This document shows positions 5,033 through 36,580 of a stretch of DNA of 64,000 nt, piece by piece. The stretch spans positions 14,568 through 78,567 of the forward strand of contig JAUYHD010000029.1 in assembly GCA_030690215.1 (NCBI GenBank). The letters are read 5' to 3'. The position numbers were made by a program, and so were the translations under genes. Each line of letters starts with the position of its first letter. Position 1 is the stretch's first letter. Under the pieces are notes generated by a model. The model searched no databases and had not been told where the DNA came from. It saw nothing but the letters and a program-made list of their open reading frames with translations. The stretch is from a bacterium. Lineage in GTDB: Bacteria > Patescibacteriota > Minisyncoccia > 1-14-0-10-42-19.

Positions 5033-5722
5033 AAGGCTGTTATCTTGGCTGCAGGCGAAGGAACCCGCATGCGGCCGCTCACCAACGACACGCCAAAACC
5101 CATGCTTTTTGTTTCAGGAAAGCCGCTTCTTCTGCATATGCTGGACTCTCTCCCTGAAGAAATAAATGAAATCATTCTTGTTACCGGTTATCTTGAAGAA
5201 AAGATCAAAGCATATTTTGGAGAACAATTCGGGAGATTCCGCATCCGTTACATAAAGCAGAACGAAAAAAAAGGCACGGGCGACGCGCTATTTCTGTGCA
5301 AGCCGTTTTTCGCAAAAAACGAGCGTTTTCTCGTAATGTACGCTGACGACCTTCATTCAAAAAAAGCGATAGAAGAAGTTATAAAACACCCCTTAGCCAT
5401 ACTTGTAAAAGAAGTTGAAAACCCTCGAGCATTTGGCGTGATTACAACTGATGAAAACGGACATATCCGCGAATTTGTAGAGAAGCCCGAAGTCCCGCCC
5501 TCCAACCTCGTATCAATAGGAGTGCAGTTGCTTGACGAGCGAATTTTTTCATACCCGCTGGAAAAACACGCAAACGGGGAATATTATTTAGTAGACGCGG
5601 TGGCGCACATGGCTCGCGACTACAAAATAAAAACGATACATACTGATTTTTGGATCCCTATAGGATACCCGGAAGATCTCAAAAAAGCGGAAGATTACTT
5701 CAATCAAAAAAAGTCCGCCTAA
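5030..5722 (+). CDS. sugar-phosphate nucleotidyltransferase (G1P thymidylyl/uridylyltransferase-like)
   Basis: MKAVILAAGEGTRMRPLT N-terminal NTP-transferase signature; 230 aa. Confidence 0.8.
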   Translation: MKAVILAAGEGTRMRPLTNDTPKPMLFVSGKPLLLHMLDSLPEEINEIILVTGYLEEKIKAYFGEQFGRFRIRYIKQNEKKGTGDALFLCKPFFAKNERFLVMYADDLHSKKAIEEVIKHPLAILVKEVENPRAFGVITTDENGHIREFVEKPEVPPSNLVSIGVQLLDERIFSYPLEKHANGEYYLVDAVAHMARDYKIKTIHTDFWIPIGYPEDLKKAEDYFNQKKSA

Positions 5723-5788
5723 TCGGCGAGACTTATTGCCCGCCTAGTCGGCGAGGCTTTCAGAAGAATGGCCCGCCTAGTCGGCGAG
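5715..5788. repeat. three tandem copies of 16-17 bp hairpin unit CCGCCTARTCGGCGAG between convergent genes
   Basis: copies at 5715-5730, 5739-5755, 5772-5788 with 8 and 16 bp spacers. Confidence 0.7.
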
Positions 5789-5819
5789 GATTGATGAGAA
5801 ATCCCCGTTAAAAGGCTTT

Positions 5820-17716: not shown

Positions 17717-17756
17717 AAATCAACGAAGAACTACGATCGTTGTTCTTTGTTGATTT
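17717..17756. promoter_or_regulatory. 40-bp near-perfect palindrome (operator-like), core AGAACTACGATCGTTGTTCT
   Basis: 36/40 self-complementary; second copy of core at 18503-18522. Confidence 0.6.
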
Positions 17757-17903: not shown

Positions 17904-18482
17904 TCATCCAAGCTTAAAATATTTCTTAAGATGAAATTCATTATCAAGCGAATCGGCAATAATAAAACGGGTGTAGGGACGTGCATAAAAAAATTCAATT
18001 ACAAAATCAACTTCATCCTGACATTCAAATGGATGTACAAATACACTTTTTTGATATTCAAAAAATCCGGCTCGTATCAATGCGCGCCGCAAGGCGTCCC
18101 GAATCACACGTGATTTCTCAGGTATATCAAATAACACTATGCGCCACTTCCCATCCCATTTTTCCATGGGAGCAACACGGATGGCATCAATTTTATATCT
18201 GAGCGCTTTTTCTTCCCCCTTTTGCGTAAGCACGAGAGTATATGTTCCGTCTTTATTACGTACCGTTTTGATTAGCCGAGAATTATAAAGACTTTTAATG
18301 GCGCGATGAAGAGCTTTTTGATCAACTTCCTTCCACCAATGAGCAACACCCCTTACAATGTTAAAATATTTTTTTGGGTTATGATTCAAGCCCAACAACG
18401 CTCCTCCTAAAAGCAAAATAAGAACTTTTTGCGAATTTGGCCCAAGATTAAAACCTCGTTTTGTTTTTTTGCGATATTCCAT
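17904..18482 (-). CDS. winged-HTH + Cas2/VapD-fold (PaaX-like architecture) putative transcriptional regulator
   Basis: C-terminal KWRIVLFDIPEKSRVIRDALRRALIRAGFFEYQKSVFV matches Cas2/PaaX_C pattern; N-terminal wHTH-like; ORF track uses GTG at 18500, first ATG at 18482. Confidence 0.5.
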   Translation of the reverse strand: MEYRKKTKRGFNLGPNSQKVLILLLGGALLGLNHNPKKYFNIVRGVAHWWKEVDQKALHRAIKSLYNSRLIKTVRNKDGTYTLVLTQKGEEKALRYKIDAIRVAPMEKWDGKWRIVLFDIPEKSRVIRDALRRALIRAGFFEYQKSVFVHPFECQDEVDFVIEFFYARPYTRFIIADSLDNEFHLKKYFKLG

Positions 18483-18502
18483 AATTAAATAGAAATACAC
18501 GA

Positions 18503-18522
18503 AGAACTACGATCGTTGTTCT
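18503..18522. promoter_or_regulatory. 20-bp palindromic operator AGAACTACGATCGTTGTTCT between regulator start and divergent promoters
   Basis: 18/20 self-complementary; identical to 17727-17746. Confidence 0.6.
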
Positions 18523-18548
18523 ATGTGGATTTTGCTCATTATATCATT

Positions 18549-19867: not shown

Positions 19868-21128
19868 TAGCGCCCCCAAGCACCTGCCTGCCGGCAGGCA
19901 GGTTTCCCTCCTCCATTGAATAGAAAACTATTGATTGGCCGGGTGTTACTGCGCGTTGCGGATCTTTAAATTGAATTAAGAATTTTGAATTAGGAATTAA
20001 GGTTTCTTCCGTTATTCTTGATTCATAATTCATAATTCGTGCTACTTGTAGCGGTTGGCGATATCGTATTCGCACCTCACATTCTAAAGGCAATTCCGGA
20101 ACAACTCCGGATATCCAATGCGCGTCGCGAACGCGCAATTCCGTTTTAAATAATGCCTCTTCATATGGACCTTCGGCAACCGTAATCGTATTGATCGAAA
20201 CATCTTTATCGGTTACATAATATGGGATGCCCCCACCCACCCCTATGCCGTGACGCTGGCCGATGGTGTAAAATTCTGCCCCTTCATGCGTGCCTATTTC
20301 TTTTCCGCCGGTAGTCAGAATTTTCCCGGAACGCTTCGGCAATACTTCCTGCATAAAAGAACGGAAATCGATATTACCAACAAAACAAAGTCCCTGGGAA
20401 TCTTTTTTTGCATGTGTCGGAAGTCCAAACTTTTTTGCCATAGCGCGGACCTCTCTTTTTTCATATCCCCCAATCGGAAATAATGCGTGCTTCAATTGGT
20501 CTTGCGTTAGCGTCCATAAAAAATAACTTTGATCTTTGTTTATATCTCTCGCAACATGTAGCATATAGCGTGCGGCAGATTTCTCATTTTGAGTTTTGAA
20601 CTTTGCGCTTTGAGCTTTCCTTACATAATGTCCAGTTGCAATATAGTCTGCCCCCAAACTACGCGCCTTATTTAAAAAAACTCCGAATTTAATTTCTTTG
20701 TTGCACATGACATCTGGATTTGGCGTAAGCCCCGCTTTATATTCACGCACCATATAATCAAACACTGATGCGCGGTATTCTTTTTCGAGATCAAATACAT
20801 AAAATGGAATATGCAATTTTTCTGCGACTCGTCGGGCATCCTCCGCGTCTTGTGCGGATGTACAATACGCCCCCTCTGACCAGCACTTCATATAGGCGCC
20901 GATTACTTCGTATTCCCCACTTTGAACCAACAAAGCAGCCGCAACGGACGAATCAACCCCGCCGGACATCGCTACGAAGACCTTTTTACCCCGAGTAGTA
21001 TTGAGGGGCTTGCCCCGAGTGCTATCGGGGGGCTTGCCCCGAGCCCCGCCAGAAGCGGGATCGAGGGGCTTGCCCCGAGCCCCGCCAGAAGCGGGATCGA
21101 GGGGTTTGTTGTTTTGATTAATTGACAT
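19857..21128 (-). CDS. mnmA: tRNA-specific 2-thiouridylase MnmA with Pro/Gly-rich repeat N-terminal extension
   Basis: PP-loop KVFVAMSGGVDSSVAA, catalytic Cys regions; N-terminal ~47 aa encoded by tandem repeats. Confidence 0.88.
   Translation of the reverse strand: MSINQNNKPLDPASGGARGKPLDPASGGARGKPPDSTRGKPLNTTRGKKVFVAMSGGVDSSVAAALLVQSGEYEVIGAYMKCWSEGAYCTSAQDAEDARRVAEKLHIPFYVFDLEKEYRASVFDYMVREYKAGLTPNPDVMCNKEIKFGVFLNKARSLGADYIATGHYVRKAQSAKFKTQNEKSAARYMLHVARDINKDQSYFLWTLTQDQLKHALFPIGGYEKREVRAMAKKFGLPTHAKKDSQGLCFVGNIDFRSFMQEVLPKRSGKILTTGGKEIGTHEGAEFYTIGQRHGIGVGGGIPYYVTDKDVSINTITVAEGPYEEALFKTELRVRDAHWISGVVPELPLECEVRIRYRQPLQVARIMNYESRITEETLIPNSKFLIQFKDPQRAVTPGQSIVFYSMEEGNLPAGRQVLGGAIIS
20990..21112. 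repeat. GC-rich tandem repeat, 36-bp unit x2 full plus partial copies, in-frame in mnmA 5' end
   Basis: gccccgccagaagcgggatcgaggggcttgccccga at 21041-21076 and 21077-21112; partial copies 21001-21040. Confidence 0.85.
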
Positions 21129-23732: not shown

Positions 23733-23776
23733 GGGTTCACCCTCGCAAGAGACGACCCAGCTTCGCCAAAGCTTTT

Positions 23777-23804
23777 CCGCCCAAGGCGGATCCGCCTTTG
23801 GCGG
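23777..23804. repeat. GC-rich palindromic element ccgcccaaggcggatccgcctttggcgg
   Basis: 27/28 identical to 6703-6730 inside leuS. Confidence 0.8.
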
Positions 23805-23845
23805 AAGCGAGGTAAGGGCTCACCATGGGTGGTTGCGGGCAGATA

Positions 23846-26461: not shown

Positions 26462-26675
26462 AAGCTCAATATGATTTTTTCAAATAACTACACTTTTATT
26501 ATAACCGAACAGAGACCATTTGCAGGACAAAAATACAGTTAGACAGTAAATCAAGGAGTCCGTAAACCCCGTTAGAAGTACCGCTATCTAACCGTGCGAT
26601 ATTCTTGTATGGTATCTTTCATTTCCTATATACCGCCCATGGACTTAAAAACGCTCCACTTTTTGCGAAACGTTT

Positions 26676-27515
26676 TTAATAGCCACCAACAAATTCACGA
26701 AATCGTTTTTGCAATTCTCTTGTATGCAAGCCGACTTTCCCGTTCCCCACCATGTTGCTATTAATCTTTACAACAGGCAAAATCTCTTTATTGGTTGCGG
26801 TAAGAAACGCTTCAGACGCTTTAGGCACTTCATCTAAGCGGATATCCCGCTCTTCAATCCGAAAATCTTTTTTTGCGAGAGAGAGAACAAAATTGCGAGT
26901 AGTCCCTATTAATACATTTTTCTTCGGCGTAATGAGCCTGCTCCCCCTTACAAGAAAAAAATTACTTGTAGTCGCTTCAAGAATGTCGCCGTGGTACGTG
27001 TAGAGCATCTCTCTATACCGTTTATGCTTCTTAAAATTTCGCATCTTAAGCGCGATCATGTAATTATTTGTTTTTGCTTCAGGAATATCCCGAAGGTATT
27101 CATGCGTCAGCACCGGGATTCCTTTCGTATACAATATGTCGGGCAATGGTTCTGATTTTTCGGCAAGAATAAAAAATGTCGGTTTTTCAATAAAAAACAC
27201 GCTTGTGCTCGGTCCTCCGGTCAATACAAAACGCAAACAAGTTTCTGGAAATGCATTTTTTTCTATAAGCGCGTGTGTCGCTTTTTCGATATTCTTGCGG
27301 GAAACGGAAATCTGCAAATGGAGTTTTTTTGCGGATTCTTCAAACCGATCAAGGTGCTCTTTCATTAAAAACGGCTTACCATTATAGGTGCGTAAAAAAT
27401 CAAAAACTCCATACCCGCGAAGCACCCCCAAATCATTCAAACGAAAATCCGCATCTTTAAAAAGAACAATCTTTCCGTTAAAAAAACAGTGGCTGCCTAT
27501 CATCTTAATTTTCAT
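26676..27515 (-). CDS. class IV (fold type IV) PLP aminotransferase (BCAT / D-amino-acid aminotransferase / ADC lyase family)
   Basis: GVFDFLRTYNGKPFLMKEHLDRFEESA motif; probable start MKIKMIGSH. Confidence 0.7.
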   Translation of the reverse strand: MKIKMIGSHCFFNGKIVLFKDADFRLNDLGVLRGYGVFDFLRTYNGKPFLMKEHLDRFEESAKKLHLQISVSRKNIEKATHALIEKNAFPETCLRFVLTGGPSTSVFFIEKPTFFILAEKSEPLPDILYTKGIPVLTHEYLRDIPEAKTNNYMIALKMRNFKKHKRYREMLYTYHGDILEATTSNFFLVRGSRLITPKKNVLIGTTRNFVLSLAKKDFRIEERDIRLDEVPKASEAFLTATNKEILPVVKINSNMVGNGKVGLHTRELQKRFREFVGGY

Positions 27516-27605
27516 TATAAAAGAAAAACGGATGCAAAGATAGAAACATTGACACCAAAGCAAAAACATGTCACCATTGAAGAAACGCAAGAGGAGAGCC
27601 ATCGT

Positions 27606-28064
27606 ATGAAAAAAGAAACGGCATACCAGACATACCGCAAACAGCTTGTATTATTGGCAAATGAATACCATGATATTTTCCGGGATACCATGAGAGACGC
27701 GCTCGTAGTGCACACAAAAAAGTTAACGTCCGCTCTATTAAAACAAGCAGACCGCATAACGCTAGACGATCCTCTCCCCCAACTTCTTACTATTATCCCC
27801 GATATATATATAAAAGAAGATATTCTTGCGCAAACAATGCAGAATAATGGAAGAGATATGCCGAAGCATTTTCTTATGAAAATGCGAACGGAAAAAAAGA
27901 GAACGAAAACTTTGCCGTATGTAATCATGCACCTACAAAACGGCGAAAACTCGTTAGAGTATCCGGCCAACACACTAAATTTTCTCGAAAAAATCTTCTT
28001 TTTTATGTACTCAGGAAAATTTCCTTCCAAAGACACAACGTACCAAAAGCTAATCATCGCATAA
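27606..28064 (+). CDS. hypothetical protein (152 aa)
   Basis: GAGGAGAG RBS before ATG 27606; strong terminator immediately downstream; opposite-strand ORF 27515..28057 looks like antisense artefact. Confidence 0.45.
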   Translation: MKKETAYQTYRKQLVLLANEYHDIFRDTMRDALVVHTKKLTSALLKQADRITLDDPLPQLLTIIPDIYIKEDILAQTMQNNGRDMPKHFLMKMRTEKKRTKTLPYVIMHLQNGENSLEYPANTLNFLEKIFFFMYSGKFPSKDTTYQKLIIA

Positions 28065-28072
28065 ATTAAAAA

Positions 28073-28107
28073 GGACAGACACGGAGTGTCTGTCCCCTTT
28101 TTTTATC
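28073..28107. terminator. bidirectional rho-independent terminator
   Basis: ggacagacacggagtgtctgtcc perfect stem flanked by A-run and T-run. Confidence 0.8.
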
Positions 28108-28113
28108 TAATCG

Positions 28114-29301
28114 TTATTGCTTATGGCGTATCCGATAAATCACTCCCGCCTTATCGTCCGACACGAACATATCTCCATTGGGGCGGATAACCACATCAAC
28201 AGGCCTCCCCAGAGCCGCATTGTCTTTCGTAAGCCATCCGGTGATAAAATCGGTAACTTCCGAAAACTTCCCGGCAGGATCAAATACTATGCGCACCAGC
28301 TTATACCCCGTCGGCTCAGTTCTGTTCCAAGATCCGTGGTATGCCACAATCAGGTCGTTTTTATACTCTTCGGGCCAATCCGCACTCTGAGGGACAAACG
28401 CCAGCCCAAGAGGCGCTGAATGCGCCTGCAGATCAATACGCGAGGGCGACTCAAATGGCTCCATGCACGGATTTCGTATATATGTATTTTTATCAAATTC
28501 AGTATCGTGTATATTCTTGCCGTAACAGATGGGCCATCCGTAATTGGCGCCCTCGATGATAATATTTATTTCATCGGGCGGAATGTTGTCTCCCAACTCA
28601 TCGCGACCCATCTCGGTCGCCCACATTCTTCCATCAAATGGGCTCCAGTCAAAAAATACCGCATTACGAAGGCCTCTGGCATACTCTTTAAAATCGCTCC
28701 CGTCTTTGTTCATGGAAAAAATCTTTGCGCGACGGTCGTCTTTTTCATTACATACATTACAAGAAGAACCAATAGATACATACAAACGCCCATCGGGCCC
28801 AAACCTAATCGTTCGAGTAGAATGCCCGCCACCAGAAGGCAGATCAGCGATTTTTTCAGGAGACCCTTCCGAGTATATCCGTACGCGCGATATTGTATCT
28901 TCCTCCGCAAAATAAAGAATTTGCGGGTCATCGGGGTCAAACGCAAGCCCATGAGGTTTTTGTAAATTCCTGAATACGTTGCTTGTGTGTGTCGCTTTCC
29001 CTGACTCATTCAACTCAACAAGGGAAATAACGCCTTCCGAAGTACGAGACACCCACATGTTTCCAAACGCATCAAACACAATAACACGCGCGCCTGAAAG
29101 CCCATCCGCAAAAAGAGAAATAGAAAAACCGGAGGAAAGCGTAAACGGCATTCGCCCTTCTTCAAAAATGTCTTTTATATTTTCTACAGGGGGCAGTATC
29201 GCAGGGCCGCTCCCTCGTAAATTTTTCCAATAAAAAACTGCGGCCCATAAAACACCGCCTGCGATAATCCCTATTCCTATGCCGACAATAATCTTTTTCA
29301 T
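28114..29301 (-). CDS. PQQ-dependent sugar (glucose/sorbosone) dehydrogenase-like beta-propeller, N-terminal TM
   Basis: soluble aldose sugar dehydrogenase (YliI)-like repeats; 395 aa. Confidence 0.65.
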   Translation of the reverse strand: MKKIIVGIGIGIIAGGVLWAAVFYWKNLRGSGPAILPPVENIKDIFEEGRMPFTLSSGFSISLFADGLSGARVIVFDAFGNMWVSRTSEGVISLVELNESGKATHTSNVFRNLQKPHGLAFDPDDPQILYFAEEDTISRVRIYSEGSPEKIADLPSGGGHSTRTIRFGPDGRLYVSIGSSCNVCNEKDDRRAKIFSMNKDGSDFKEYARGLRNAVFFDWSPFDGRMWATEMGRDELGDNIPPDEINIIIEGANYGWPICYGKNIHDTEFDKNTYIRNPCMEPFESPSRIDLQAHSAPLGLAFVPQSADWPEEYKNDLIVAYHGSWNRTEPTGYKLVRIVFDPAGKFSEVTDFITGWLTKDNAALGRPVDVVIRPNGDMFVSDDKAGVIYRIRHKQ

Positions 29302-29304
29302 GCA

Positions 29305-29541
29305 TCATATGCCGGTCGGGGGCTCCGAAACATTTATACTCTTTTTCTGTTTTTTTGTACGGGTAACTAACAAATATAAAATTTCAAAAATACCCGCCGT
29401 ATTCACCACCAAAAATACAACAAACCACCATTTGTCCCCTCTGTGCGCGGCGCGCCAAAGCGCAAACCCTTTCCAAGGCAATGTCCATATCGCAAGAACG
29501 AGCGCGAGAATAAAAATCGTTTCCGGAATATCCCCTATCAT
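29305..29541 (-). CDS. small 2-TM protein, PLD-nuclease N-terminal (PLDc_N/DUF5652)-like
   Basis: ALWRAAHRGDKWWFVVFLVVNTAGIFEILYLL pattern. Confidence 0.4.
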   Translation of the reverse strand: MIGDIPETIFILALVLAIWTLPWKGFALWRAAHRGDKWWFVVFLVVNTAGIFEILYLLVTRTKKQKKSINVSEPPTGI

Positions 29542-29560
29542 GCTTTCATGATACCAAATA

Positions 29561-30100
29561 TTACTCCCTATCGCCTACCCCGCCGGAGTTATTTTCGGAA
29601 AATGTTTGAAAAACGTCCATAATTAAATTCCCGAAAGGATCTTGAAGCGCTTCATCCTGACGAAAATTAAATTCACGATCACCATCATCCGCGTGGATGA
29701 CCGCATAATATGTTTTTCCCGGTGCCGTGTTACGAAGCAATTCCACGGTCCCCGCTGTCTTTCCTCCCGGAAAATATCGGGCGCCTAGAATATTTGACGG
29801 CACGCCATGTTGATCCTCATGAACCGCAAGCCACGCCCCCCGCGAGAGCGTCGCTAAAGAAATAAATACGCTATCGCCTGCGTCTTGAGCATCAACCGAA
29901 ACTGAATTGTGCCCTAACGGCAAAGAAAACACATCAGAAGCCGTGTTTGATTCATTGCGCGCGGCAGCCCTATCTTTTTGCTCTCCAGAAAAAAGAAGCC
30001 ACGCAAAACCAAACCCCAGCGCAAACGCTATAACGGGAATAAAAATAGAAACAAAAAACGAAGATGAAACGGTATCTTTTTCCATAATGAATCCCTCCAA
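29561..30100 (-). CDS. hypothetical membrane-anchored protein
   Basis: N-terminal TM then soluble domain; no motif recognised. Confidence 0.4.
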   Translation of the reverse strand: MEGFIMEKDTVSSSFFVSIFIPVIAFALGFGFAWLLFSGEQKDRAAARNESNTASDVFSLPLGHNSVSVDAQDAGDSVFISLATLSRGAWLAVHEDQHGVPSNILGARYFPGGKTAGTVELLRNTAPGKTYYAVIHADDGDREFNFRQDEALQDPFGNLIMDVFQTFSENNSGGVGDRE

Positions 30101-30120
30101 TTATAAACTATTCGCACAAA

Positions 30121-30192
30121 TAAAAAAAGGCGTCCTGTGTGTTGACCCCGAAATGCATGTGTTGCATAACGGGGCAAGCAGGACGCCTGTGT
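30121..30192 (-). terminator. terminator hairpin with conserved 42-nt interior, downstream of pepF-1
   Basis: stem GGCGTCCTG/CAGGACGCC + 8 U on minus strand; interior identical to 32162-32203. Confidence 0.7.
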
Positions 30193-30193
30193 G

Positions 30194-32020
30194 TTATTTA
30201 TTTTTTATACGAGATAAAAGAACTTCCATTTCCTCTATCGGCTTTTTGAGCGTATGGATGGCATTAACCCAAAACTCGGGAGATGAAAGATCTTTGCCGA
30301 TCGTTTTTTTTGCAACTGCTTCGGGGGTGTCTGAGCCAGACAACATAAGGAATTTTTCATATTTCGGAAGAAAATCTTCCCCTTCTTCTTTAAAAAGAGC
30401 GAAAAGACCCCTGCTTAGTAAATATCCGAACGTATACGGGAAATTGTAAAACATAACTCCAGTAATATAAAAATGGAGTTTTGTCGCCCAAAAATATGGG
30501 TCTTCGCCGCCTTTTTCAAGCACATCCCCAAATATAGCGCGCTGCTTTTGAACCATAATATCATTCAATCGCGCAACGCTTAATTCATGGGAGGCACGCT
30601 CTTCATATACCGCTTTTTCAAATTCGTAGCGAACCGGAATATCTAACAAATAAATCGCGCCGTGATTAATTTCCGCATCAAGCATAAGCGCTTTTTCTTC
30701 ATCAGAAACTTCGGGGTCTTTCATAATCCCCTCCGCAAGAATCATTTCTCCAAATGTAGAAGCAGATTCCGCAAGAGTCATCGGATAGTGACGACCAAAT
30801 GTTCGCACGCCCCTCATGATGTTTTCATGAAATGCGTGTCCTGATTCATGCGCAAGAGTTAATATGTCTCCTATGGTATTGTTATAGGTCATAAAAATCC
30901 TGGATTCGTTGATGAGGAGTGATCTGCTACAAAATCCGCCCGGTCGTTTCCCGGTGCGCGGCTCCCAATCAATCCACCGCTCATTGCATAGGTTGCGGAA
31001 AAATCTTCCGAGTTTTGGATATGCTCCGAAAAATGATTTTTCAACAAGCTGTTTTGCTTTTCCCCAATCAAGATGCGCGTGTATATCCAATGGAGCGCCC
31101 AAATCAAACCATGCGATATTTTCTCTTCCCATCATTTTTGCCTTTAACCCAAGAATTTTTTTCGGTAGGGCAATTTCCGAATATACCGCTTCAAGCATTG
31201 CTTCAAGCGTTTCCTGCTTTATTCCCGCATCAAATAAAGCGGTATCAAGAAAATAATTCGTCCCTCTTTTTTGGCCAAGCGTCAGCCGGGTACCCGAAAT
31301 TGCGTTCAACGCAGCTGCAGGAATGTCAGCTATCTTTGCCCACGCTTCGTTCCCCCCTCTAAATGCCGCTTCTCGTATCTCTCGGTCCGGCTTTTCCATA
31401 AGAGAGCGCCTTTGCGAAAAGGGTTTTATTTCTTTCCGCCCGTCAGGGTACTGCATCTCAAATGTCAATTTCCCCGAAGTGTTATTATATAAACGACCCC
31501 ACGCTTCAATCCCATCCACCCCAAGATCCGCGGCAAGTATTTCCATCTCTTTTGACATGGTCATGTTTGCCCTTTTTCGCATCCGAGCAAGATAATAAAG
31601 TGCGGCTCCTGCATTGCCCATAAAAGCGTCTCGCGCAATGAACGTATGGAATACGCTATCGGGCACGCCCTTAAGCGCTCTATCAAGCTCAACTTCCAAT
31701 CTTGCGTATTCGGCTTTAAGACGAGACATACCCGCCTGCTCTTCAGTATATTTCTCATTATCCGCATCAGCAGATGAAATGCATTCTACATATGATTCCA
31801 GATGAGAAAAGCGGGCCTGGATACCTTCGAGCGCAAGAAATATTTCTTCCCATTCGTTTTGATTTGAATCGCCCAACGAATCAAGCAATGATGCTTTTTT
31901 TGTAAAATCCTCTACATCCTTCCTAAAATTTCTTTTGAACGCCCTCATCCCAGGGCCATTGAATGCAAGAAAATACCTTGAGAGGTCCCAATTTCCATCC
32001 CTATTTACAGTCGCGTGCAT
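30194..32020 (-). CDS. pepF: oligoendopeptidase F (M3B)
   Basis: HESGHAFH zinc motif, M3 fold; start MHATVNRDG after AAGGAGG. Confidence 0.85.
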   Translation of the reverse strand: MHATVNRDGNWDLSRYFLAFNGPGMRAFKRNFRKDVEDFTKKASLLDSLGDSNQNEWEEIFLALEGIQARFSHLESYVECISSADADNEKYTEEQAGMSRLKAEYARLEVELDRALKGVPDSVFHTFIARDAFMGNAGAALYYLARMRKRANMTMSKEMEILAADLGVDGIEAWGRLYNNTSGKLTFEMQYPDGRKEIKPFSQRRSLMEKPDREIREAAFRGGNEAWAKIADIPAAALNAISGTRLTLGQKRGTNYFLDTALFDAGIKQETLEAMLEAVYSEIALPKKILGLKAKMMGRENIAWFDLGAPLDIHAHLDWGKAKQLVEKSFFGAYPKLGRFFRNLCNERWIDWEPRTGKRPGGFCSRSLLINESRIFMTYNNTIGDILTLAHESGHAFHENIMRGVRTFGRHYPMTLAESASTFGEMILAEGIMKDPEVSDEEKALMLDAEINHGAIYLLDIPVRYEFEKAVYEERASHELSVARLNDIMVQKQRAIFGDVLEKGGEDPYFWATKLHFYITGVMFYNFPYTFGYLLSRGLFALFKEEGEDFLPKYEKFLMLSGSDTPEAVAKKTIGKDLSSPEFWVNAIHTLKKPIEEMEVLLSRIKNK

Positions 32021-32150
32021 GTATAAAACCTCCTTGTAAAATAGCTTATTTGAATATGATAGTATCATAAAAAATAAATTTTGTATATAATATCTACCCT
32101 TCTGTGTTGCTCACCCTCCCAAATTGTGTATTAAAAAATAGGCGCTCAAA

Positions 32151-32222
32151 ACAAAAAAAGACGTCCTGTGTGTTGACCCCGAAATGCATGTGTTGCATAA
32201 CGAAGGCACAGAGGACGTCTCA
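32151..32222 (-). terminator. terminator hairpin with conserved 42-nt interior, downstream of pepF-2
   Basis: stem GACGTCCTCTGTG/CACACAGGACGTC with compensatory changes relative to copy 1, + U-run. Confidence 0.7.
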
Positions 32223-32236
32223 TGCGTTATTTGTTT

Positions 32237-34048
32237 TTATGAAAGTGTTGCGTACATCTCTTCGGCTTCTTTCAGCATTTCGCGCATAATTCGTATCCCG
32301 GAATTCCAAAAAGCAGGATCGATTATGTCTACGCCTACATGCTTTTTTAAAAGAATATGCGGCGCATCGCTCCCGCCGGCAGAAAGTAAACTCATATACC
32401 CCGGCACAAACGCCTGCCCTTCTTCCAGATATTTTTGATATAGCGCGAGCACCAAGAGTTCGCCGAACGAATATGCGTAACAATAGAATGGCGAATGAAT
32501 AAAATGAGGTATATAGAGCCACCACCATGCGTATTCCTTGGTAAGCGTCAGCGAACCGCCAAACATTTTTTTATTCTCATCAATCCATAATTCATTGATG
32601 TGCTCTGTCGGGATTTCTCCTTTTTCTCTGCGCTCTCTATGAACACGTTCTTCAAAACGGGTAAAAATAACCTGACGGTATACGGTAGCAAATATTTCTT
32701 CCAACTTGCCCATAATAAGCGCCATTTTTTTCTTTGGATCTTTTTCTTGTTTTTTCAAGCTGTCAAAAAGAAGTATTTCGGCAAAAACACTCGCGGTTTC
32801 AGCAGTAGGGAGAGGTGTGTCGGCTCCAAACAATCCTTGCTTGCGCGAAAGATACTGATGAATGCCATGCCCAAGCTCATGCGCGAGCGTCATAACATCG
32901 CGCAGACGCCCCATGTAATTTACGAGGACATAGGGATGCGCGCTCGGAACGGTGCCGTGGCTAAACGCTCCTCCACGCTTTCCTTTCCGCGGTGCCGCAT
33001 CAATCCATTTGTGGACAAAAAATTTCTCGGCAATGTCTCGTGCGTCTTGAGAAAATACCCCGAACGAATCAAGCACCATGCGTTTCGCATCAGAAAAAGC
33101 AATTCTCTTTTCATCGAATACCACAGGAGCATACCTGTCATAGTCATATAACACGTCAAGACCAAGCACCTTTTTCTTAAGCTCATAATAGCGGTGCGGT
33201 ATATCATAATGTTCCTCGGAAACTTTTAAAAACGCATCTACTATATCCTGGCTTATTTCATTCTCAAGATTCCGGAATGCCATCGGGTGCCCGAAAGACC
33301 GAAGCCTGTCGTCAATCGCGCAATCCTGAAGAATGGTGTTGAAGATAAACGTAAGAGTTGTTTTGTTCTCTTGGAGGCCTTTCGTAAGTGCGTCTGCCGC
33401 TGATTTTCTAAGGGTACGGTCGGAATGATATAAGAACGCGAGTATTTCGCTCTCGCTCATCTTTTCTGTTTTTTTGCCTCTTCTCATCTTAAAAACAATA
33501 TTATTTCCAATCTCATCAAAAAGACGCGAAAAGGCCTCTGAGCCGGTATTGTTTTTTTCGCTTAGTATTTTTTCTTCCGGCTCGCTAAGCTTATGCGGTT
33601 TTTCAATTCTTTCTTTCTCTAAATAGTGCCTATATCGAGAGAGGGTTTCTTCTCCGAGCAATTGTTCTGCTACGCTATCGGAAACGCCCACCCACTCTAA
33701 TTCAAAAAACAACACATGCTTATTTATTTCTGTTGCTTTTTCTTGCATCCTGGCAAGAAATGCTCCGTATTCTTGCTTGCTCGTATCGCTCGCGTACATC
33801 AAATACGCGTATGCAAGAATTTTGTGAACGCATTCCGTTATTTTTTCCAGACCAGAAACCGCATCAAATAGAAAAGACGCGGTAAGCGAATCGGAATGTA
33901 TCTTGCCCCTATAGCGCGCGCCAAATTCTTTCGCCCTCAAAAGAGCGGACGCAATATCGTTCTCAATAGCCGGGTCTGTATGCCCCGTATATAAATCGGA
34001 TAAATCCCACGCGGGGATTTTCTCATTTTTTGCAGATTGTGTGTTCAT
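32237..34048 (-). CDS. pepF: oligoendopeptidase F paralog (M3B)
   Basis: HELGHGIH zinc motif; ~40% identical to pepF-1 by eye. Confidence 0.85.
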   Translation of the reverse strand: MNTQSAKNEKIPAWDLSDLYTGHTDPAIENDIASALLRAKEFGARYRGKIHSDSLTASFLFDAVSGLEKITECVHKILAYAYLMYASDTSKQEYGAFLARMQEKATEINKHVLFFELEWVGVSDSVAEQLLGEETLSRYRHYLEKERIEKPHKLSEPEEKILSEKNNTGSEAFSRLFDEIGNNIVFKMRRGKKTEKMSESEILAFLYHSDRTLRKSAADALTKGLQENKTTLTFIFNTILQDCAIDDRLRSFGHPMAFRNLENEISQDIVDAFLKVSEEHYDIPHRYYELKKKVLGLDVLYDYDRYAPVVFDEKRIAFSDAKRMVLDSFGVFSQDARDIAEKFFVHKWIDAAPRKGKRGGAFSHGTVPSAHPYVLVNYMGRLRDVMTLAHELGHGIHQYLSRKQGLFGADTPLPTAETASVFAEILLFDSLKKQEKDPKKKMALIMGKLEEIFATVYRQVIFTRFEERVHRERREKGEIPTEHINELWIDENKKMFGGSLTLTKEYAWWWLYIPHFIHSPFYCYAYSFGELLVLALYQKYLEEGQAFVPGYMSLLSAGGSDAPHILLKKHVGVDIIDPAFWNSGIRIMREMLKEAEEMYATLS

Positions 34049-34128
34049 ATCTATCTCCTTATCGTGCTATTTTTAAACATCTTCTTTGCAGAATACTATC
34101 ATAAAAATTTACTTCTGTATATGATATG

Positions 34129-34431
34129 TTACATGTCAGACAGCATCTTTCTTACCACTTCTCTGTATTCCGGGAAATACGACTCAATATCCTGAAGAGA
34201 AAATCTCCGTAGAATTGATTCATTCGATTCATGCGATAAAAGAAACCGAAATGATTGTTGCACCAAGATATCGGGAGCTGCGCTTTCCCCCGTTAACTCC
34301 TCCCAATATGGCTCGGATAAAGAAACTTCGTGCGTTGTTGTCGTCCCGTTGCGGACGGTAACGCGATACTTCGCTTCAGGAAGCGGATCAATTTCTTCCA
34401 CCGTGACAGTATAGGCAAACGAATCTCGCAT
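34129..34431 (-). CDS. hypothetical acidic protein (100 aa)
   Basis: ORF only. Confidence 0.35.
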   Translation of the reverse strand: MRDSFAYTVTVEEIDPLPEAKYRVTVRNGTTTTHEVSLSEPYWEELTGESAAPDILVQQSFRFLLSHESNESILRRFSLQDIESYFPEYREVVRKMLSDM

Positions 34432-34514
34432 AATGTTCCATTAGTATACGGCATTTTTCGGAAATAAAAAAACCCCGATATTCTTTTACAAGAATAACGG
34501 GATTCTATTGGTAT

Positions 34515-35741
34515 TTAATTGCAATTTTCAATCAATACGGCAACCGCTCCTCCTCCACCATGGCATGTGGTCGCAATGCCGTATCGTCCATTCATGTCTT
34601 GTAGCGCGTAGCAAAGATTTACTAAAATTTTTGCGCCGGAAGCACCCAGTGGATGGCCGTTTGCGATAGCGCCGCCCCATACATTCACTTTTTCAGGGGA
34701 GAGTCCCAATTCTTTTATCGCAAAAAGGGGTGCGGGAGGAAATGCTTCGTTTATCTCAAAAAGGTCGATATCTTGCAGGCGCAATTTTGCTTTTTCTACA
34801 ACACGCGTTATCGCAAGAGTTGGCGCGCGCAAGAATTCGCGCGGTTCGAGCCCCGCGTGACCAAATGCCACTATGCGCGCCATGGGCTTTTTAATACACC
34901 CCACTGCTTGTTTCTCCGATATGAGTATGAGGGCAGATGCACCGTCCGATAACTGTGAGGAATTGGCAACCGTCAACCGTCCATTGTCGCAAAACACGGG
35001 CGGACGGCTCCGTATCTTATCTCTGTCCGGCTCACGCCATCCTTCATCAAATTGAGGAGAATTTTTTATATGCAGAAGCTGACGAGATATCTTTTCTCGC
35101 GCCGAACCTGCGCGAGAATAACTTTCAAACGCATACGCATCCAACACATCCCTCGATATTTCGTGGTCTCGAATAATACTTTCGGCAAGTTTTCCCATAA
35201 CGGGGAAGCCGGGGTAGAGCGCGTCGCACAATCCTTCCGACTGCAAACTATCCACTGCGTATTGCCCCATCAGAGGATCAGCGTTTTTTTCTTGCAGCGC
35301 TGTCTGTAAATACGAGAACGTATAGGCAAACGTAAGCGGATCATATACCCCATGTAGACGCCTCATCAAAAACGGCGCGTTGCTCATTGACTCAATACCG
35401 CCGACAATAACCGCATCCATGTCCCCCGTGGCTATTTTAAGGTACCCATACTCGGCAGAAAGAAAACTTGAAGAACATACCTTGCTAAAATTTGACGCAT
35501 CGGTAGCATGCCTCAATCCCGCGCGAATCTTTATTTGATTTGCCGGATGCTGGCCAAGCCCCGAAGAAACTACGTTCCCGATATATACGCCTTCTATGTC
35601 GCTACGGCTGATCAAAACGTAATCAATCAGCTTTTCTATGAGTTGGGCCCCAAGATCCACAGCCGAACTATCTTTATACGCACCGCCAAACCGTCCGGTA
35701 GGAATGCGTTTTCCTTCAAGAATATATACAGGCTTCATGCC
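34515..35741 (-). CDS. acetyl-CoA C-acetyltransferase (thiolase)
   Basis: thiolase motifs (NVHGGAIAIGHPLGASG, CxGGG at C-terminus); start MKPVYILEG after GGAGG (ORF track extends to 35837). Confidence 0.9.
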   Translation of the reverse strand, partial: GMKPVYILEGKRIPTGRFGGAYKDSSAVDLGAQLIEKLIDYVLISRSDIEGVYIGNVVSSGLGQHPANQIKIRAGLRHATDASNFSKVCSSSFLSAEYGYLKIATGDMDAVIVGGIESMSNAPFLMRRLHGVYDPLTFAYTFSYLQTALQEKNADPLMGQYAVDSLQSEGLCDALYPGFPVMGKLAESIIRDHEISRDVLDAYAFESYSRAGSAREKISRQLLHIKNSPQFDEGWREPDRDKIRSRPPVFCDNGRLTVANSSQLSDGASALILISEKQAVGCIKKPMARIVAFGHAGLEPREFLRAPTLAITRVVEKAKLRLQDIDLFEINEAFPPAPLFAIKELGLSPEKVNVWGGAIANGHPLGASGAKILVNLCYALQDMNGRYGIATTCHGGGGAVAVLIENCN

Positions 35742-35801
35742 AAACCTCCTTATGCAATTTTTTACTATAACAAACAACAAATACCCCCGCAGTATACACC
35801 A

Positions 35802-35828
35802 AAACACCCCTTTATAAAAGGGGTGTTT
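35802..35828. terminator. perfect palindromic hairpin aaacaccccttta-taaaggggtgttt (possible terminator of GIY-YIG gene)
   Basis: 11-bp stem; weak U tract. Confidence 0.4.
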
Positions 35829-35917
35829 ATGTTCCAAGATTTTTTAAAGCCAGCTTACCCCCGCAAAATAGACAAGAGCAAGAACAATAGCAAGGATAAG
35901 GAACGCCAAAAGAGCAA

Positions 35918-36238
35918 GCATACCCCGTTAGGCTAAATCAAATGAAGAAGACCAATACCCCCGCAGGCGATTCCTCAAAAATCTGCGTCCCGCAGTAGAT
36001 TTGAGATAACGCTCACGCTGTATGGCGTCTTCTTGATTTGTGCAAGCCTCAAGATAAATGATAATAAATGGTAGTCTCATTTTTGTTGAAAAGTTATATC
36101 CCCGTGTATGCTCTTCTAATCGTTTTTTAATATTCTTTGTACATCCTACATACATATTGCCATCCTTTTTGCTCCGCAATACGTATGTCCAGAAGAGCAT
36201 ATTTGATTTTGCCATACGGGGCATACCCCGTTAGGCTA
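35918..36238 (-). mobile_element. 303-bp GIY-YIG nuclease cassette bracketed by 18-bp direct repeats gcataccccgttaggcta
   Basis: DR at 35918-35935 (contains stop) and 36221-36238 (contains start); period 303 bp. Confidence 0.55.
35928..36224 (-). CDS. GIY-YIG nuclease family protein (YhbQ/UPF0213-like)
   Basis: FWTYVLRSKKDGNMYVGCTKNIKKRLEEH ... RERYLK matches GIY-YIG core. Confidence 0.8.
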   Translation of the reverse strand: MPRMAKSNMLFWTYVLRSKKDGNMYVGCTKNIKKRLEEHTRGYNFSTKMRLPFIIIYLEACTNQEDAIQRERYLKSTAGRRFLRNRLRGYWSSSFDLA

Positions 36239-36580
36239 CATCGAAAAACGTCTTCCTTGCCCCGTAAGACAATATCACATGGTACGTCATGCATTCGCCG
36301 TTCATTCACCATAGCATAGCTGTACTCCCCATTTCTTCTGACAGCGACGCTCTAATAAATGACGTACAAGAATGCGTTATGTGATATTGTCAAACGGGGC
36401 TTGCAAAATCGCAGAATATATTTCGATGGTTACCTTTTATTGTACTTTTACTAATAATACTTCGTATCACCTCCGTAAGACGTAAAGATTTTGCTTTTCC
36501 GCCGGAGGCGGATCTGCTCGCCTCGTCTTCGCCTCGGCGAGGCGGGCCTTCGGCATGACGATGTTGCCATACGGGGCATA
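36211..36580. repeat. 355-bp non-coding segment bracketed by 15-bp direct repeats gccatacggggcata; contains repeat-family sequences
   Basis: DR at 36211-36225 and 36566-36580; interior holds 36367-36414 (~80% to 16781-16830) and GC-rich palindrome 36488-36550. Confidence 0.5.

What the first reader, a model, noticed from the sequence alone, without database searches (positions are those of the whole stretch)
30121..32222. 42-nt sequence perfectly conserved inside terminator-like hairpins downstream of two diverged pepF paralogs, with compensatory stem changes
30131-30172 and 32162-32203 are 42/42 identical (cgtcctgtgtgttgaccccgaaatgcatgtgttgcataacg). Each lies in the loop of a long hairpin that is followed on the minus strand by a U-run, immediately after the stop of pepF-1 and pepF-2 respectively. 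The two PepF proteins are only ~40% identical by eye, so a recent duplication cannot explain perfect non-coding identity. The closing stems differ by compensated changes: GGCGTCCTG/CAGGACGCC versus GACGTCCT..../....AGGACGTC. This points to selection on RNA structure plus a sequence-specific interior. Possibilities are a protein- or sRNA-binding site, a shared 3'UTR regulator, or a 5' leader element for the next gene. The two upstream regions also share a palindrome-like ATGATA(G/C)TATCAT box (32055-32070; partial at 34085-34097).
Basis: seen in the sequence. Interest (0 to 1): 0.6.

Follow-up and report, generated by a model that had tools for sequence, protein, structure and literature searches.

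The report
Terminator hairpin copied between neighbouring genes
The identical 41-base stretch sits inside two ordinary transcription-terminator hairpins behind two neighbouring peptidase genes, and it is identical because one terminator was recently copied onto the other within this genome, not because the sequence has been preserved for a special function.

Summary
The repeat is real but 41 nt long, not 42: 30131-30171 equals 32162-32202. It has two copies in 64 kb. An independent assembly breaks exactly inside it, so it is not an artefact. On the minus strand each copy lies in a long compound hairpin followed by U7, directly after the stop codon of an M3 oligoendopeptidase gene. The two proteins are only 24% identical.

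Relatives of this Niyogibacteria-like MAG settle the interpretation. The compound hairpin is the ancestral terminator at the pepF|DUF7282 junction. It is present in L001, L003, L012 and L016, and is a short plain hairpin in L002 and L008. Behind pepF-2, relatives L001 and L002 carry only a plain hairpin.

Orthologous copies differ from the window's at 7-12 of the 41 positions, while the two window copies differ at none. The adjacent 5' arm differs at 6 of 17 positions (Fisher p = 3e-4). That mosaic is the signature of a recent, lineage-specific short gene-conversion or template-switch tract between two adjacent homologous terminators.

Only the outer stem covaries. The inner hairpin decays or is absent in relatives. 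No dispersed copies and no Rfam, viral or plasmid match were found. The "palindrome box" is the extended -10 of a promoter shared by both genes. The finding is ordinary and of low interest.

The parts
30129..30187 (-). Copy 1: compound terminator hairpin behind pepF-1. Outer stem GGCGUCCUG/CAGGACGCC; inner imperfect hairpin CCCCG-UU-AUGCA-ACACA-UGCAU-UU-CGGGG.
   Evidence: Folds at -36.8 kcal/mol, z = -7.7. The position is orthologous to the hairpins in L001, L003, L012 and L016.
30122..30128 (-). U7 tract of the copy 1 terminator.
   Evidence: Read directly from the sequence. It is invariant in all orthologs.
32160..32219 (-). Copy 2: compound terminator hairpin behind pepF-2. It is a mosaic: its own 5' arm GACGUCCUCUGUGCCUUCG, then an interior and 3' strand identical to copy 1.
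   Evidence: Folds at -30.6 kcal/mol, z = -6.1. The 5' arm differs from copy 1 at 6/17 and the core at 0/41. Relatives have a plain hairpin here.
32153..32159 (-). U7 tract of the copy 2 terminator.
   Evidence: Read directly from the sequence.
30131..30171 (.). 41-nt exact repeat, copy 1 side (the inferred conversion tract).
   Evidence: Logan contig L018 ends at 30160, 30 nt inside it.
32162..32202 (.). 41-nt exact repeat, copy 2 side (the inferred conversion tract).
   Evidence: Logan contig L004 ends at 32173, 30 nt inside it.
30194..32020 (-). pepF-1, an M3 oligoendopeptidase of 608 aa. The start at 32020 is preceded by AAGGAGG.
   Evidence: PF01432, PF08439.
32237..34048 (-). pepF-2, an M3 oligoendopeptidase of 603 aa, 24% identical to PepF-1.
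29561..30085 (-). DUF7282 gene downstream of copy 1. Its -10 TATAAT lies at 30100-30105, 16 nt after the U tract.
   Evidence: The TATAAT is conserved after the U tract in relatives.
32059..32087 (-). pepF-1 promoter, TATACA-N14-TGaTACTAT (extended -10).
   Evidence: One search gives 2 matches in the window against 0 expected. The motif is conserved in L001 and L002.
34093..34121 (-). pepF-2 promoter, TATACA-N14-TGaTAGTAT.
   Evidence: The motif is conserved in L001 and L012.

Best explanation
Both copies are Rho-independent (intrinsic) transcription terminators. Each is a GC-rich hairpin followed by U7, placed 5-17 nt after the stop codon. Each ends one monocistronic pepF transcript and shields the promoter that follows.

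The long compound version is the ancestral terminator at the pepF|DUF7282 junction of this Niyogibacteria-like clade. It consists of a 9-10 bp outer stem that is maintained by compensatory change, plus a palindromic extension inside the original loop that is dispensable.

In the window's lineage only, after its split from the closest relative L001, a tract of 41 nt (at most about 50 nt) was transferred non-reciprocally between the pepF-1 and pepF-2 terminators. These lie 2031 nt apart in direct orientation and already had homologous outer stems. The transfer was short-tract gene conversion or a replication template switch. The perfect identity is therefore young, not conserved.

Shown here: the terminator anatomy, its orthology, the outer-stem covariation, the mosaic divergence pattern, the absence of the interior from the pepF-2 terminator in relatives, and that the repeat is real.

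Inferred: that the hairpins actually terminate transcription, the molecular mechanism of the transfer, and its direction.
For: Anatomy:
- The hairpins have z-scores of -6 to -8 and are followed by U7 directly after the stops.

Orthology:
- The same architecture occurs at the same place in L001, L012 and L016, and partly in L003.
- L002 and L008 carry a plain 10-11 bp hairpin with the same outer stem and the loop TCAAGAAA.

Structure:
- The outer helix has 3 of 9 pairs changed on both sides and 95.6% of cells paired.
- The inner helix has no compensatory change, and 7 of 18 pairs decay.

Mosaic pattern:
- Core: W1-W2 0/41, W1-L001 7/41, W1-L012 11/41, W1-L016 12/41.
- 5' arm: W1-W2 6/17, W1-L001 1/17.
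- Fisher p = 3e-4 for the heterogeneity.
- P(0 differences at the W1-L001 rate) is about 5e-4.

Relatives and flanks:
- The pepF-2 terminators of L001, L006 and L002 lack the interior.
- The flank after copy 2's U tract is homologous to L002's pepF-2/pepF-1 spacer, not to copy 1's flank.

Neutral baseline:
- Fourfold-site identity is 0.55 between W and L001, and 0.38-0.39 between W and L002 or L003.

Coding regions:
- No conversion is visible.

The repeat is real:
- Two Logan contigs break 30 nt inside the core.
Against: - Termination itself is not demonstrated.
- The homology flanking the tract is short and diverged (5' arm 11/17, 3' end 8/9). Classical RecA-dependent conversion would be inefficient unless copy 2 already carried an older, diverged copy of the whole element. 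Its 5' arm TGTGCCTTCG against GCTTGCCCTCG suggests it did.
- The direction of transfer is unresolved. The core is 17% diverged from L001, between the 6% of W1's arm and the 29% of W2's arm.
- Across W and L001 the element (about 85% identical) is better conserved than the other intergenic DNA of the block (24-59%). Some constraint beyond a minimal terminator cannot be excluded.
- Only 64 kb of this genome and about 80 kb of relatives could be searched for further copies.
Confidence: 0.75

Rival explanations
1. The 41-mer is a sequence-specific functional RNA or DNA element kept identical by purifying selection at both genes. Examples are a protein- or sRNA-binding site, an RNase III target or a 3'UTR regulator.
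For: - The structures are stable.
- The element is the best-conserved intergenic feature of the W/L001 syntenic block.
- The 5' strand CTTGCCCTCGTTATGCAA is nearly invariant in L001, L012 and L016, although fourfold sites are close to saturation.
- The half-sites ATGCA/TGCAT are kept while the 5-nt centre changes.
Against: - The 41-mer itself differs at 7-12 positions in orthologs.
- Its apical loop and 3' strand are the variable parts.
- The inner helix shows no covariation and decays.
- The interior is absent in L002 and L008, and from the pepF-2 terminators of relatives.
- The part that is conserved between species (the 5' arm) is exactly the part that differs between the two window copies.
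- There is no Rfam match.
Confidence: 0.08
2. The element is a low-copy dispersed palindromic repeat (REP-, MITE- or DUS-like) that lands in or forms terminators. The two copies would be two insertions.
For: - It is palindromic, sits behind genes, and in L016 the interior is a perfect 18-bp palindrome lying in the loop of an older hairpin.
- The interior is present or absent among close relatives (L003 against L002).
- The window holds other short repeated hairpins.
Against: - There are only two copies in 64 kb.
- The covariance model finds none elsewhere in 143 kb of window plus clade loci.
- The degenerate core gives one chance-level hit in 596 Gb of genomes and none in the JGI metagenomes or IMG/VR. 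BLAST against plasmids and phages finds nothing.
- The element has been stable at one orthologous junction across lineages whose synonymous sites are saturated.
- Copy 2 is a mosaic, not a clean insertion.
Confidence: 0.07
3. The similarity is what remains of a tandem duplication of the whole 2.03-kb pepF unit (promoter, coding sequence and terminator), with the non-coding ends decaying more slowly than the coding region.
For: - The promoter, 5'UTR and terminator similarities all recur with a period of 2031-2034 nt (D2, D6).
Against: - The coding regions are 24-25% aa and 39% nt identical, with fourfold sites at the random level of 0.27.
- Each paralog has orthologs about 60% identical in other phyla, so their split is far older than this clade.
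- More distant relatives have a single pepF-2-type gene at this locus.
- The 41-mer carries window-specific derived states.
Confidence: 0.05
4. The identity is an assembly artefact: a MAG consensus or chimeric join created it.
For: The window is a metagenome-assembled contig.
Against: - Independent Logan unitig-based contigs reproduce both unique flanks and terminate 30 nt inside the core on either side. That is the behaviour expected of a genuine repeat of more than 30 nt.
- A 41-nt repeat is shorter than the usual final k-mers of metagenome assemblers (general knowledge).
Confidence: 0.03

Closest known systems
Rho-independent (intrinsic) transcription terminators
   Same: A GC-rich stem-loop is followed immediately by a run of 7 U, just downstream of a stop codon on the coding strand. 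The stem is maintained by compensatory changes while the loop and interior are free to vary or be lost.
   Different: The hairpin is unusually long and compound, spanning 59-62 nt and up to 27 bp in L016, against the usual 5-14 bp. Its interior is a palindromic extension nested in the loop of an older simple terminator.
Short-tract gene conversion and concerted evolution between intragenomic repeats in bacteria (e.g. tufA/tufB, rRNA operons, antigen gene families; my own knowledge, plus Mycobacterium tuberculosis examples listed, PMC12046097)
   Same: Paralogous copies in one genome are more alike than orthologs. The identity block is sharply bounded inside diverged flanks. The copies are close together and in direct orientation.
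   Different: The tract lies entirely in non-coding terminator DNA between genes that are themselves far too diverged to recombine. The flanking homology is very short, so a hairpin-assisted template switch is an equally plausible mechanism.
Repeated sequences embedded in terminator hairpins: DNA uptake sequences of Neisseria and Pasteurellaceae (title and abstract of PMC1852404, listed; details from my own knowledge), REP/BIME and Correia elements (my own knowledge)
   Same: An identical sequence is found inside more than one terminator-like hairpin.
   Different: Those families have hundreds to thousands of copies per genome. Here there are two copies at adjacent genes and none elsewhere in the DNA that could be searched.

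Membership tests
Intrinsic (Rho-independent) terminator | Stable GC-rich RNA stem-loop | tested here: met
   The two copies fold at -36.8 and -30.6 kcal/mol, z = -7.7 and -6.1.
Intrinsic (Rho-independent) terminator | U-rich tract directly 3' of the stem | tested here: met
   U7 lies at 30128-30122 and 32159-32153 on the minus strand. It is invariant in orthologs.
Intrinsic (Rho-independent) terminator | Located just downstream of a stop codon on the gene's strand | tested here: met
   The stops are at 30194-30196 and 32237-32239. The hairpins start 7 and 16 nt later.
Intrinsic (Rho-independent) terminator | Stem maintained by compensatory substitutions in relatives | tested here: met
   In the outer helix 3 of 9 pairs change on both sides and 95.6% of cells are paired. 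Only 5 sequences were available, so this is descriptive.
Intrinsic (Rho-independent) terminator | RNA 3' ends form at the U tract in vivo or in vitro | not testable with these tools
   This needs Term-seq or in vitro transcription.
Gene-conversion tract | Block of identity sharply bounded by diverged sequence in both copies | tested here: met
   There are 0/41 differences in the core against 6/17 in the adjacent 5' arm and 7/10 downstream of the U tract. Fisher p = 3e-4.
Gene-conversion tract | Paralogous copies more similar than orthologous copies (phylogenetic incongruence) | tested here: met
   W1-W2 is 0/41. W1-L001 is 7/41, W1-L012 is 11/41 and W1-L016 is 12/41.
Gene-conversion tract | Recipient site lacks the tract in sister lineages | tested here: met
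   The pepF-2 terminators of L001, L006 and L002 are plain hairpins.
Gene-conversion tract | Direction of transfer and dependence on recombination proteins | tested here: inconclusive
   The core is 17% diverged from L001, which lies between the divergence of the two arms. The mechanism cannot be tested with these tools.
Dispersed palindromic repeat (REP, MITE, DUS) | Many copies spread over the genome | tested here: not met
   There are two copies in 64 kb. None was found elsewhere in the clade loci or in public collections. The rest of this genome was not available.
Rfam RNA families | Match at or above a family's gathering score | tested here: not met
   No match in the window at the gathering threshold. 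The local E-value search gives only chance hits at E > 2.
Integron attC site | Imperfect palindrome bounded by RYYYAAC and GTTRRRY core sites behind promoterless cassettes | tested here: not met
   The outer ends read GGCGTCC and GGACGCC and are followed by U7. Both genes have their own promoter. The locus is stably syntenic in relatives.

The most novel reading that the evidence does not exclude
The compound hairpin is more than a terminator. Its interior would be a sequence-specific 3'UTR module, for example a double-strand RNase or RNA-binding-protein target. This lineage would have recruited it to the second peptidase gene by conversion and retained it because it couples the mRNA fate of the two M3 peptidases. 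That would add to a promoter and 5'UTR that were also copied between the two unrelated paralogs, making a copy-and-paste cis-regulatory shell in a reduced CPR genome.
Probability: 0.08. Interest if true: 0.5.

Novelty: new member of a known kind. Interest (0 to 1): 0.2.

Why it matters
Mostly as a caution. Perfect non-coding identity between diverged paralogs in a single genome does not show functional constraint. A handful of relatives was enough to show that it is a young conversion tract.

Two smaller points are of interest to people who study genome evolution in reduced CPR bacteria. First, terminators only about 60 nt long and 2 kb apart can be homogenised even though the genes between them are unrelated at the DNA level. 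Second, two anciently diverged M3 peptidase genes share a homologous promoter, 5'UTR and terminator, which suggests that regulatory DNA is copied between neighbours.

Neither point opens a long-standing question.

Tried and rejected
- **Exact 21-mer core.** Not found in GTDB species genomes or JGI metagenomes.
- **Degenerate core GTTATGCA-N5-TGCATTTCGGGG.** One hit, in Ruegeria alba, at the number expected by chance. None in JGI metagenomes or IMG/VR.
- **BLAST of the element.** No match against plasmids or phages.
- **Rfam.** Nothing at the gathering threshold and nothing credible at permissive thresholds.
- **Covariance model of the element.** Searched over the window and 12 loci. It found only the orthologous terminators and generic hairpin-plus-T hits.
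- **RBS relic idea.** I considered whether TTGGGAGGG downstream of copy 2 is a relic of the DUF7282 ribosome-binding site, which would imply a larger duplication. Rejected, because that flank aligns with L002's own pepF-2/pepF-1 spacer.
- **Antisense promoter on the + strand.** I considered TTGACC-N17-CATAAC inside the core. The consensus scan does not call it, and I read it by eye only, so I did not pursue it.
- **Integron attC reading.** Rejected on sequence and context.
- **Conversion in the coding regions.** None found.
- **Direction of transfer.** Could not be resolved.
Full report
**1. The observation**

The region was read directly. The exact repeat is 41 nt long, 30131-30171 = 32162-32202. 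It gives two matches at up to 3 mismatches in the whole 64-kb window, with none expected in shuffles. With two mismatches it extends to 52/54 over 30118-30171 and 32149-32202 (D2).

All genes here are on the minus strand:
- pepF-2 at 32237-34048
- pepF-1 at 30194-32020
- a DUF7282 gene at 29561-30085

The two peptidases are 24% identical, not about 40%.

On the minus strand each repeat lies in a long hairpin followed by U7, a few bases after the stop codon. The hairpins fold at -36.8 and -30.6 kcal/mol, with z = -7.7 and -6.1. The 41-mer is not the loop. It is the 3' strand of the outer stem, the internal loop, and the 3' strand, apical loop and part of the 5' strand of an inner hairpin.

The repeat is not an assembly artefact. 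Two Logan contigs from SRR13727534 are identical to window 32173-35947 and 26561-30160. Each stops 30 nt inside the core, which is what a k=31 graph does at a true repeat.

**2. Where the window comes from, and its relatives**

The proteins are from an NCBI MAG labelled only "bacterium", on an 84-kb contig. The DUF7282 neighbour is 69% identical to a protein of a Candidatus Niyogibacteria MAG with the same gene order. The organism is therefore probably a Niyogibacteria-like CPR bacterium.

Fetched relatives:

| Locus | Content | Relation to the window |
|---|---|---|
| L001 (L006 carries the same pepF-2 end and spacer) | same pepF-2 / pepF-1 / DUF7282 order | PepF-1 82% identical |
| L002, L003 | pepF-1 | PepF-1 71% and 70% identical |
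| L016 | pepF-1 end plus DUF7282 | |
| L012 | one pepF-2-type gene next to DUF7282 | 71% to PepF-2 |
| L008-L011, L013, L014 | one pepF-2-type gene next to DUF7282 | 57-63% to PepF-2 |

Fourfold-degenerate sites are 55% identical between W and L001 and 38-39% identical between W and L002 or L003, which is near saturation. Between the two paralogs they are at the random level of 27%.

**3. What the element is**

At the junction in front of DUF7282 the same architecture recurs (sense strand):

| Locus | Sequence |
|---|---|
| W1 | `GGCGTCCTG CTTGCCC-CGTTATGCAA CACA TGCATTTCGGGGTCAA CACA CAGGACGCC T7` |
| L001 | `GGCGTCCTG CTTGCCCTCGTTATGCAA TAAG TGCATTTCGGGGTCAA GAA CAAGGCGTC T7` |
| L012 | `GACGCCCTG CCTGCCCTCGTTATGCAA TAA TTGCGTAATCGGGTCAAG AAA CAGGGCGTC T7` |
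| L016 | `GACGCTCCG CTTGCCCTCGTTATGCAA TTA TTGCATAACGAGGGCAAG AAA CGGGGCGTC T7` |

The L016 version is a perfect 27-bp hairpin at -47.8 kcal/mol. L003 has the 5' part before its contig ends.

L002 (`GGACGTCCTG TCAACAAG CGGGATGTC T7`) and L008 (`GGCGCCTTG TCAAGAAA CAAGGCGCC T7`) carry only the outer stem with the loop TCAAGAAA. The long form is therefore a simple terminator with a palindromic extension nested in its loop. The extension has been lost, or was never gained, in some lineages. L002 lacks it although its sister L003 has it.

On the five full-length sequences:
- The 9-bp outer helix is 95.6% paired, and 3 pairs change on both sides (A-U/G-C/G-U, C-G/U-A, U-A/C-G).
- The 18-bp inner helix has no compensatory change.
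- 7 of the inner helix's pairs are broken in some sequences.

A conserved TATAAT follows the U tract by about 16-21 nt in all relatives. It is the likely -10 of the DUF7282 promoter.

All of this is the anatomy of an intrinsic terminator. Neither Rfam search finds anything credible.

**4. Why the two window copies are identical**

Behind pepF-2, relatives L001, L006 and L002 have a plain hairpin:
- L001 and L006: `GGCGCTCTATC TACA GATAGGGCGC T6`
- L002: `GACGCCCTATC AAAAAA TAGGGTGTC T6`

L002's plain hairpin still scores against the element model at 25.7 bits, so it is a homologue of the simple version. L001's does not reach the reporting threshold in that search; its loop and 3' arm (TCTACAGATAGGGCGC) resemble the element's TCAACACACAGGACGTC only when aligned by eye (12 of 17). 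Both lack the interior.

The DNA after copy 2's U tract aligns with L002's own pepF-2/pepF-1 spacer, not with copy 1's flank. The recipient locus is therefore the old pepF-2 terminator.

Difference counts:

| Segment | W1-W2 | W1-L001 | W1-L012 | W1-L016 |
|---|---|---|---|---|
| 41-nt core | 0/41 | 7/41 | 11/41 | 12/41 |
| 17-nt 5' arm next to it | 6/17 | 1/17 | 4/17 | 5/17 |

- The heterogeneity between arm and core in the W1-W2 comparison is significant (Fisher p = 3e-4).
- Zero differences would have a probability of about 5e-4 at the W1-L001 rate.
- Both window copies share window-specific derived states: the apical loop CACA, and CACACAGGACG.
- The core is thus not conserved between species, yet it is identical within this genome and bounded by a diverged arm.

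This is the classic mosaic of a recent non-reciprocal transfer.

The single "compensated" outer pair fits this picture. A-U is the state in L012, L016 and W2. L001 has the G·U intermediate and W1 has G-C. W1's C is therefore either younger than the transfer or just outside the tract.

The coding regions show no conversion: 39% nt identity, best 30-nt window 21/30, longest exact run 11 nt. Similar values are seen in L001.

**5. Mechanism and open points**

Inferred: short-tract gene conversion, or a replication template switch, between two homologous hairpins 2031 nt apart in direct orientation.

Copy 2's 5' arm (CTGTGCCTTCG) is a diverged form of the element's GCTTGCCCTCG. It pairs with the shared 3' strand in a different register, UGUG with CACA. 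Copy 2 probably carried an older diverged copy of the whole element, which then supplied homology for a later 41-nt patch.

The direction of transfer cannot be decided. Core divergence from L001 is 17%, between the 6% and 29% of the two arms.

Across W and L001 the element is about 85% identical, while the other intergenic regions of the block are 24-59% identical. Some constraint on the long hairpin exists. It falls on the 5' strand and the stems, not on the 41-mer as such.

**6. Rivals**

- **Sequence-specific functional element.** Disfavoured by sections 3 and 4.
- **Dispersed repeat.** No further copy in the window, in 143 kb of window plus clade loci by covariance model, in GTDB genomes, JGI metagenomes or IMG/VR (one chance-level hit in Ruegeria), or in plasmids and phages. 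The rest of this genome was not available.
- **Relic of a whole-unit tandem duplication.** Excluded for the core by the window-specific states, and by the age of the paralogs: each has orthologs about 60% identical in other phyla.
- **Assembly artefact.** Excluded.
- **Integron attC.** There are no core sites, a U tract is present, both genes have their own promoters, and synteny is stable.

**7. The promoter box**

This is a -35-like hexamer, a 17-nt spacer and an extended -10. The pattern occurs only in front of the two pepF genes in the window, 2 matches against 0 expected.

The promoter and the 5'UTR down to the ribosome-binding site align between pepF-1 and pepF-2 in W and L001. They also align with the pepF-1 upstream region of L002 and the pepF-2 upstream region of L012. 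The right half of the palindrome is not conserved.

Two ancient paralogs thus sit in homologous regulatory shells on both sides. This most likely results from earlier copying of regulatory DNA when pepF-1 came to lie between pepF-2 and its terminator. More distant relatives have only the pepF-2 type at this locus.

**8. Verdict**

The repeat is real and the explanation is ordinary: two intrinsic terminators, one recently overwritten in part by the other. It is a new member of a known kind, and its interest is low (0.2).

The least ordinary reading still open is that the compound hairpin's interior is a functional 3'UTR module shared by the two peptidase genes. I put that at about 8%.

Noticed in passing
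window 32021-32115 and 34049-34145 (minus strand); L001 3757-3849 and 1810-1905: The promoter (TATACA-N14-TGaTAnnAT) and the 5'UTR of pepF-1 and pepF-2 are homologous, although the coding sequences are only 24% identical. The pattern occurs nowhere else in the window. Together with the terminators, this gives two unrelated paralogs a shared regulatory shell with a 2031-2034 nt period.
   Followed up: partly
L008-L011, L012, L013, L014 compared with window 30194-34048: More distant Niyogibacteria-like relatives have a single pepF-2-type gene between the thiolase and DUF7282 genes. pepF-1 was therefore either inserted between pepF-2 and the ancestral terminator in the W/L001/L002/L003/L016 group, or deleted elsewhere by recombination between the two terminators. 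In L012 the long element follows pepF-2 directly.
   Followed up: partly
L017 1-160: In this groundwater contig a new plain terminator (CCGCACATG CATT CATGTGCGG T7) follows the upstream gene. About 45 nt further on, only the 3' half of the old element survives (GGGGTCAACAGAGGGCGTCC T7), without a 5' partner. It still lies at the usual distance before the TATAAT of DUF7282.
   Followed up: no
window 17717-17756 and 18493-18532: Two 40-nt palindromes, 90% identical (AAATCAACGAAGAACTACGATCGTTGTTCTTTGTTGATTT), flank a gene at 17904-18500 (minus strand). Its product has a PaaX central Cas2-like domain (PF20803, E = 2e-21). They may be operator sites of an autoregulated repressor.
   Followed up: partly
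window 6699-6731, 23773-23805, 36495-36527: A 33-nt double hairpin, TTTTCCGCCCGAGGCGGATCCGCCTTTGGCGGA, occurs twice at 97% identity and a third time at 70%. One copy lies inside a long ORF (5820-8456, minus strand). It is unexplained.
   Followed up: no
window 5710-5792 and 20986-21095: Short tandem arrays of GC-rich hairpin-forming units: 25-nt units of the form CCCGCCTAGTCGGCGAG, and 24-36-nt units of the form GGGGCTTGCCCCGAG.
   Followed up: no
window 30100-30105 (minus strand) and orthologous positions in L001, L002, L008, L012, L013, L016, L017: A TATAAT hexamer is conserved 16-21 nt after the terminator's U7 tract in every relative. The U tract therefore occupies the -35 position of the DUF7282 promoter, so terminator and promoter are packed back to back.
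   Followed up: partly
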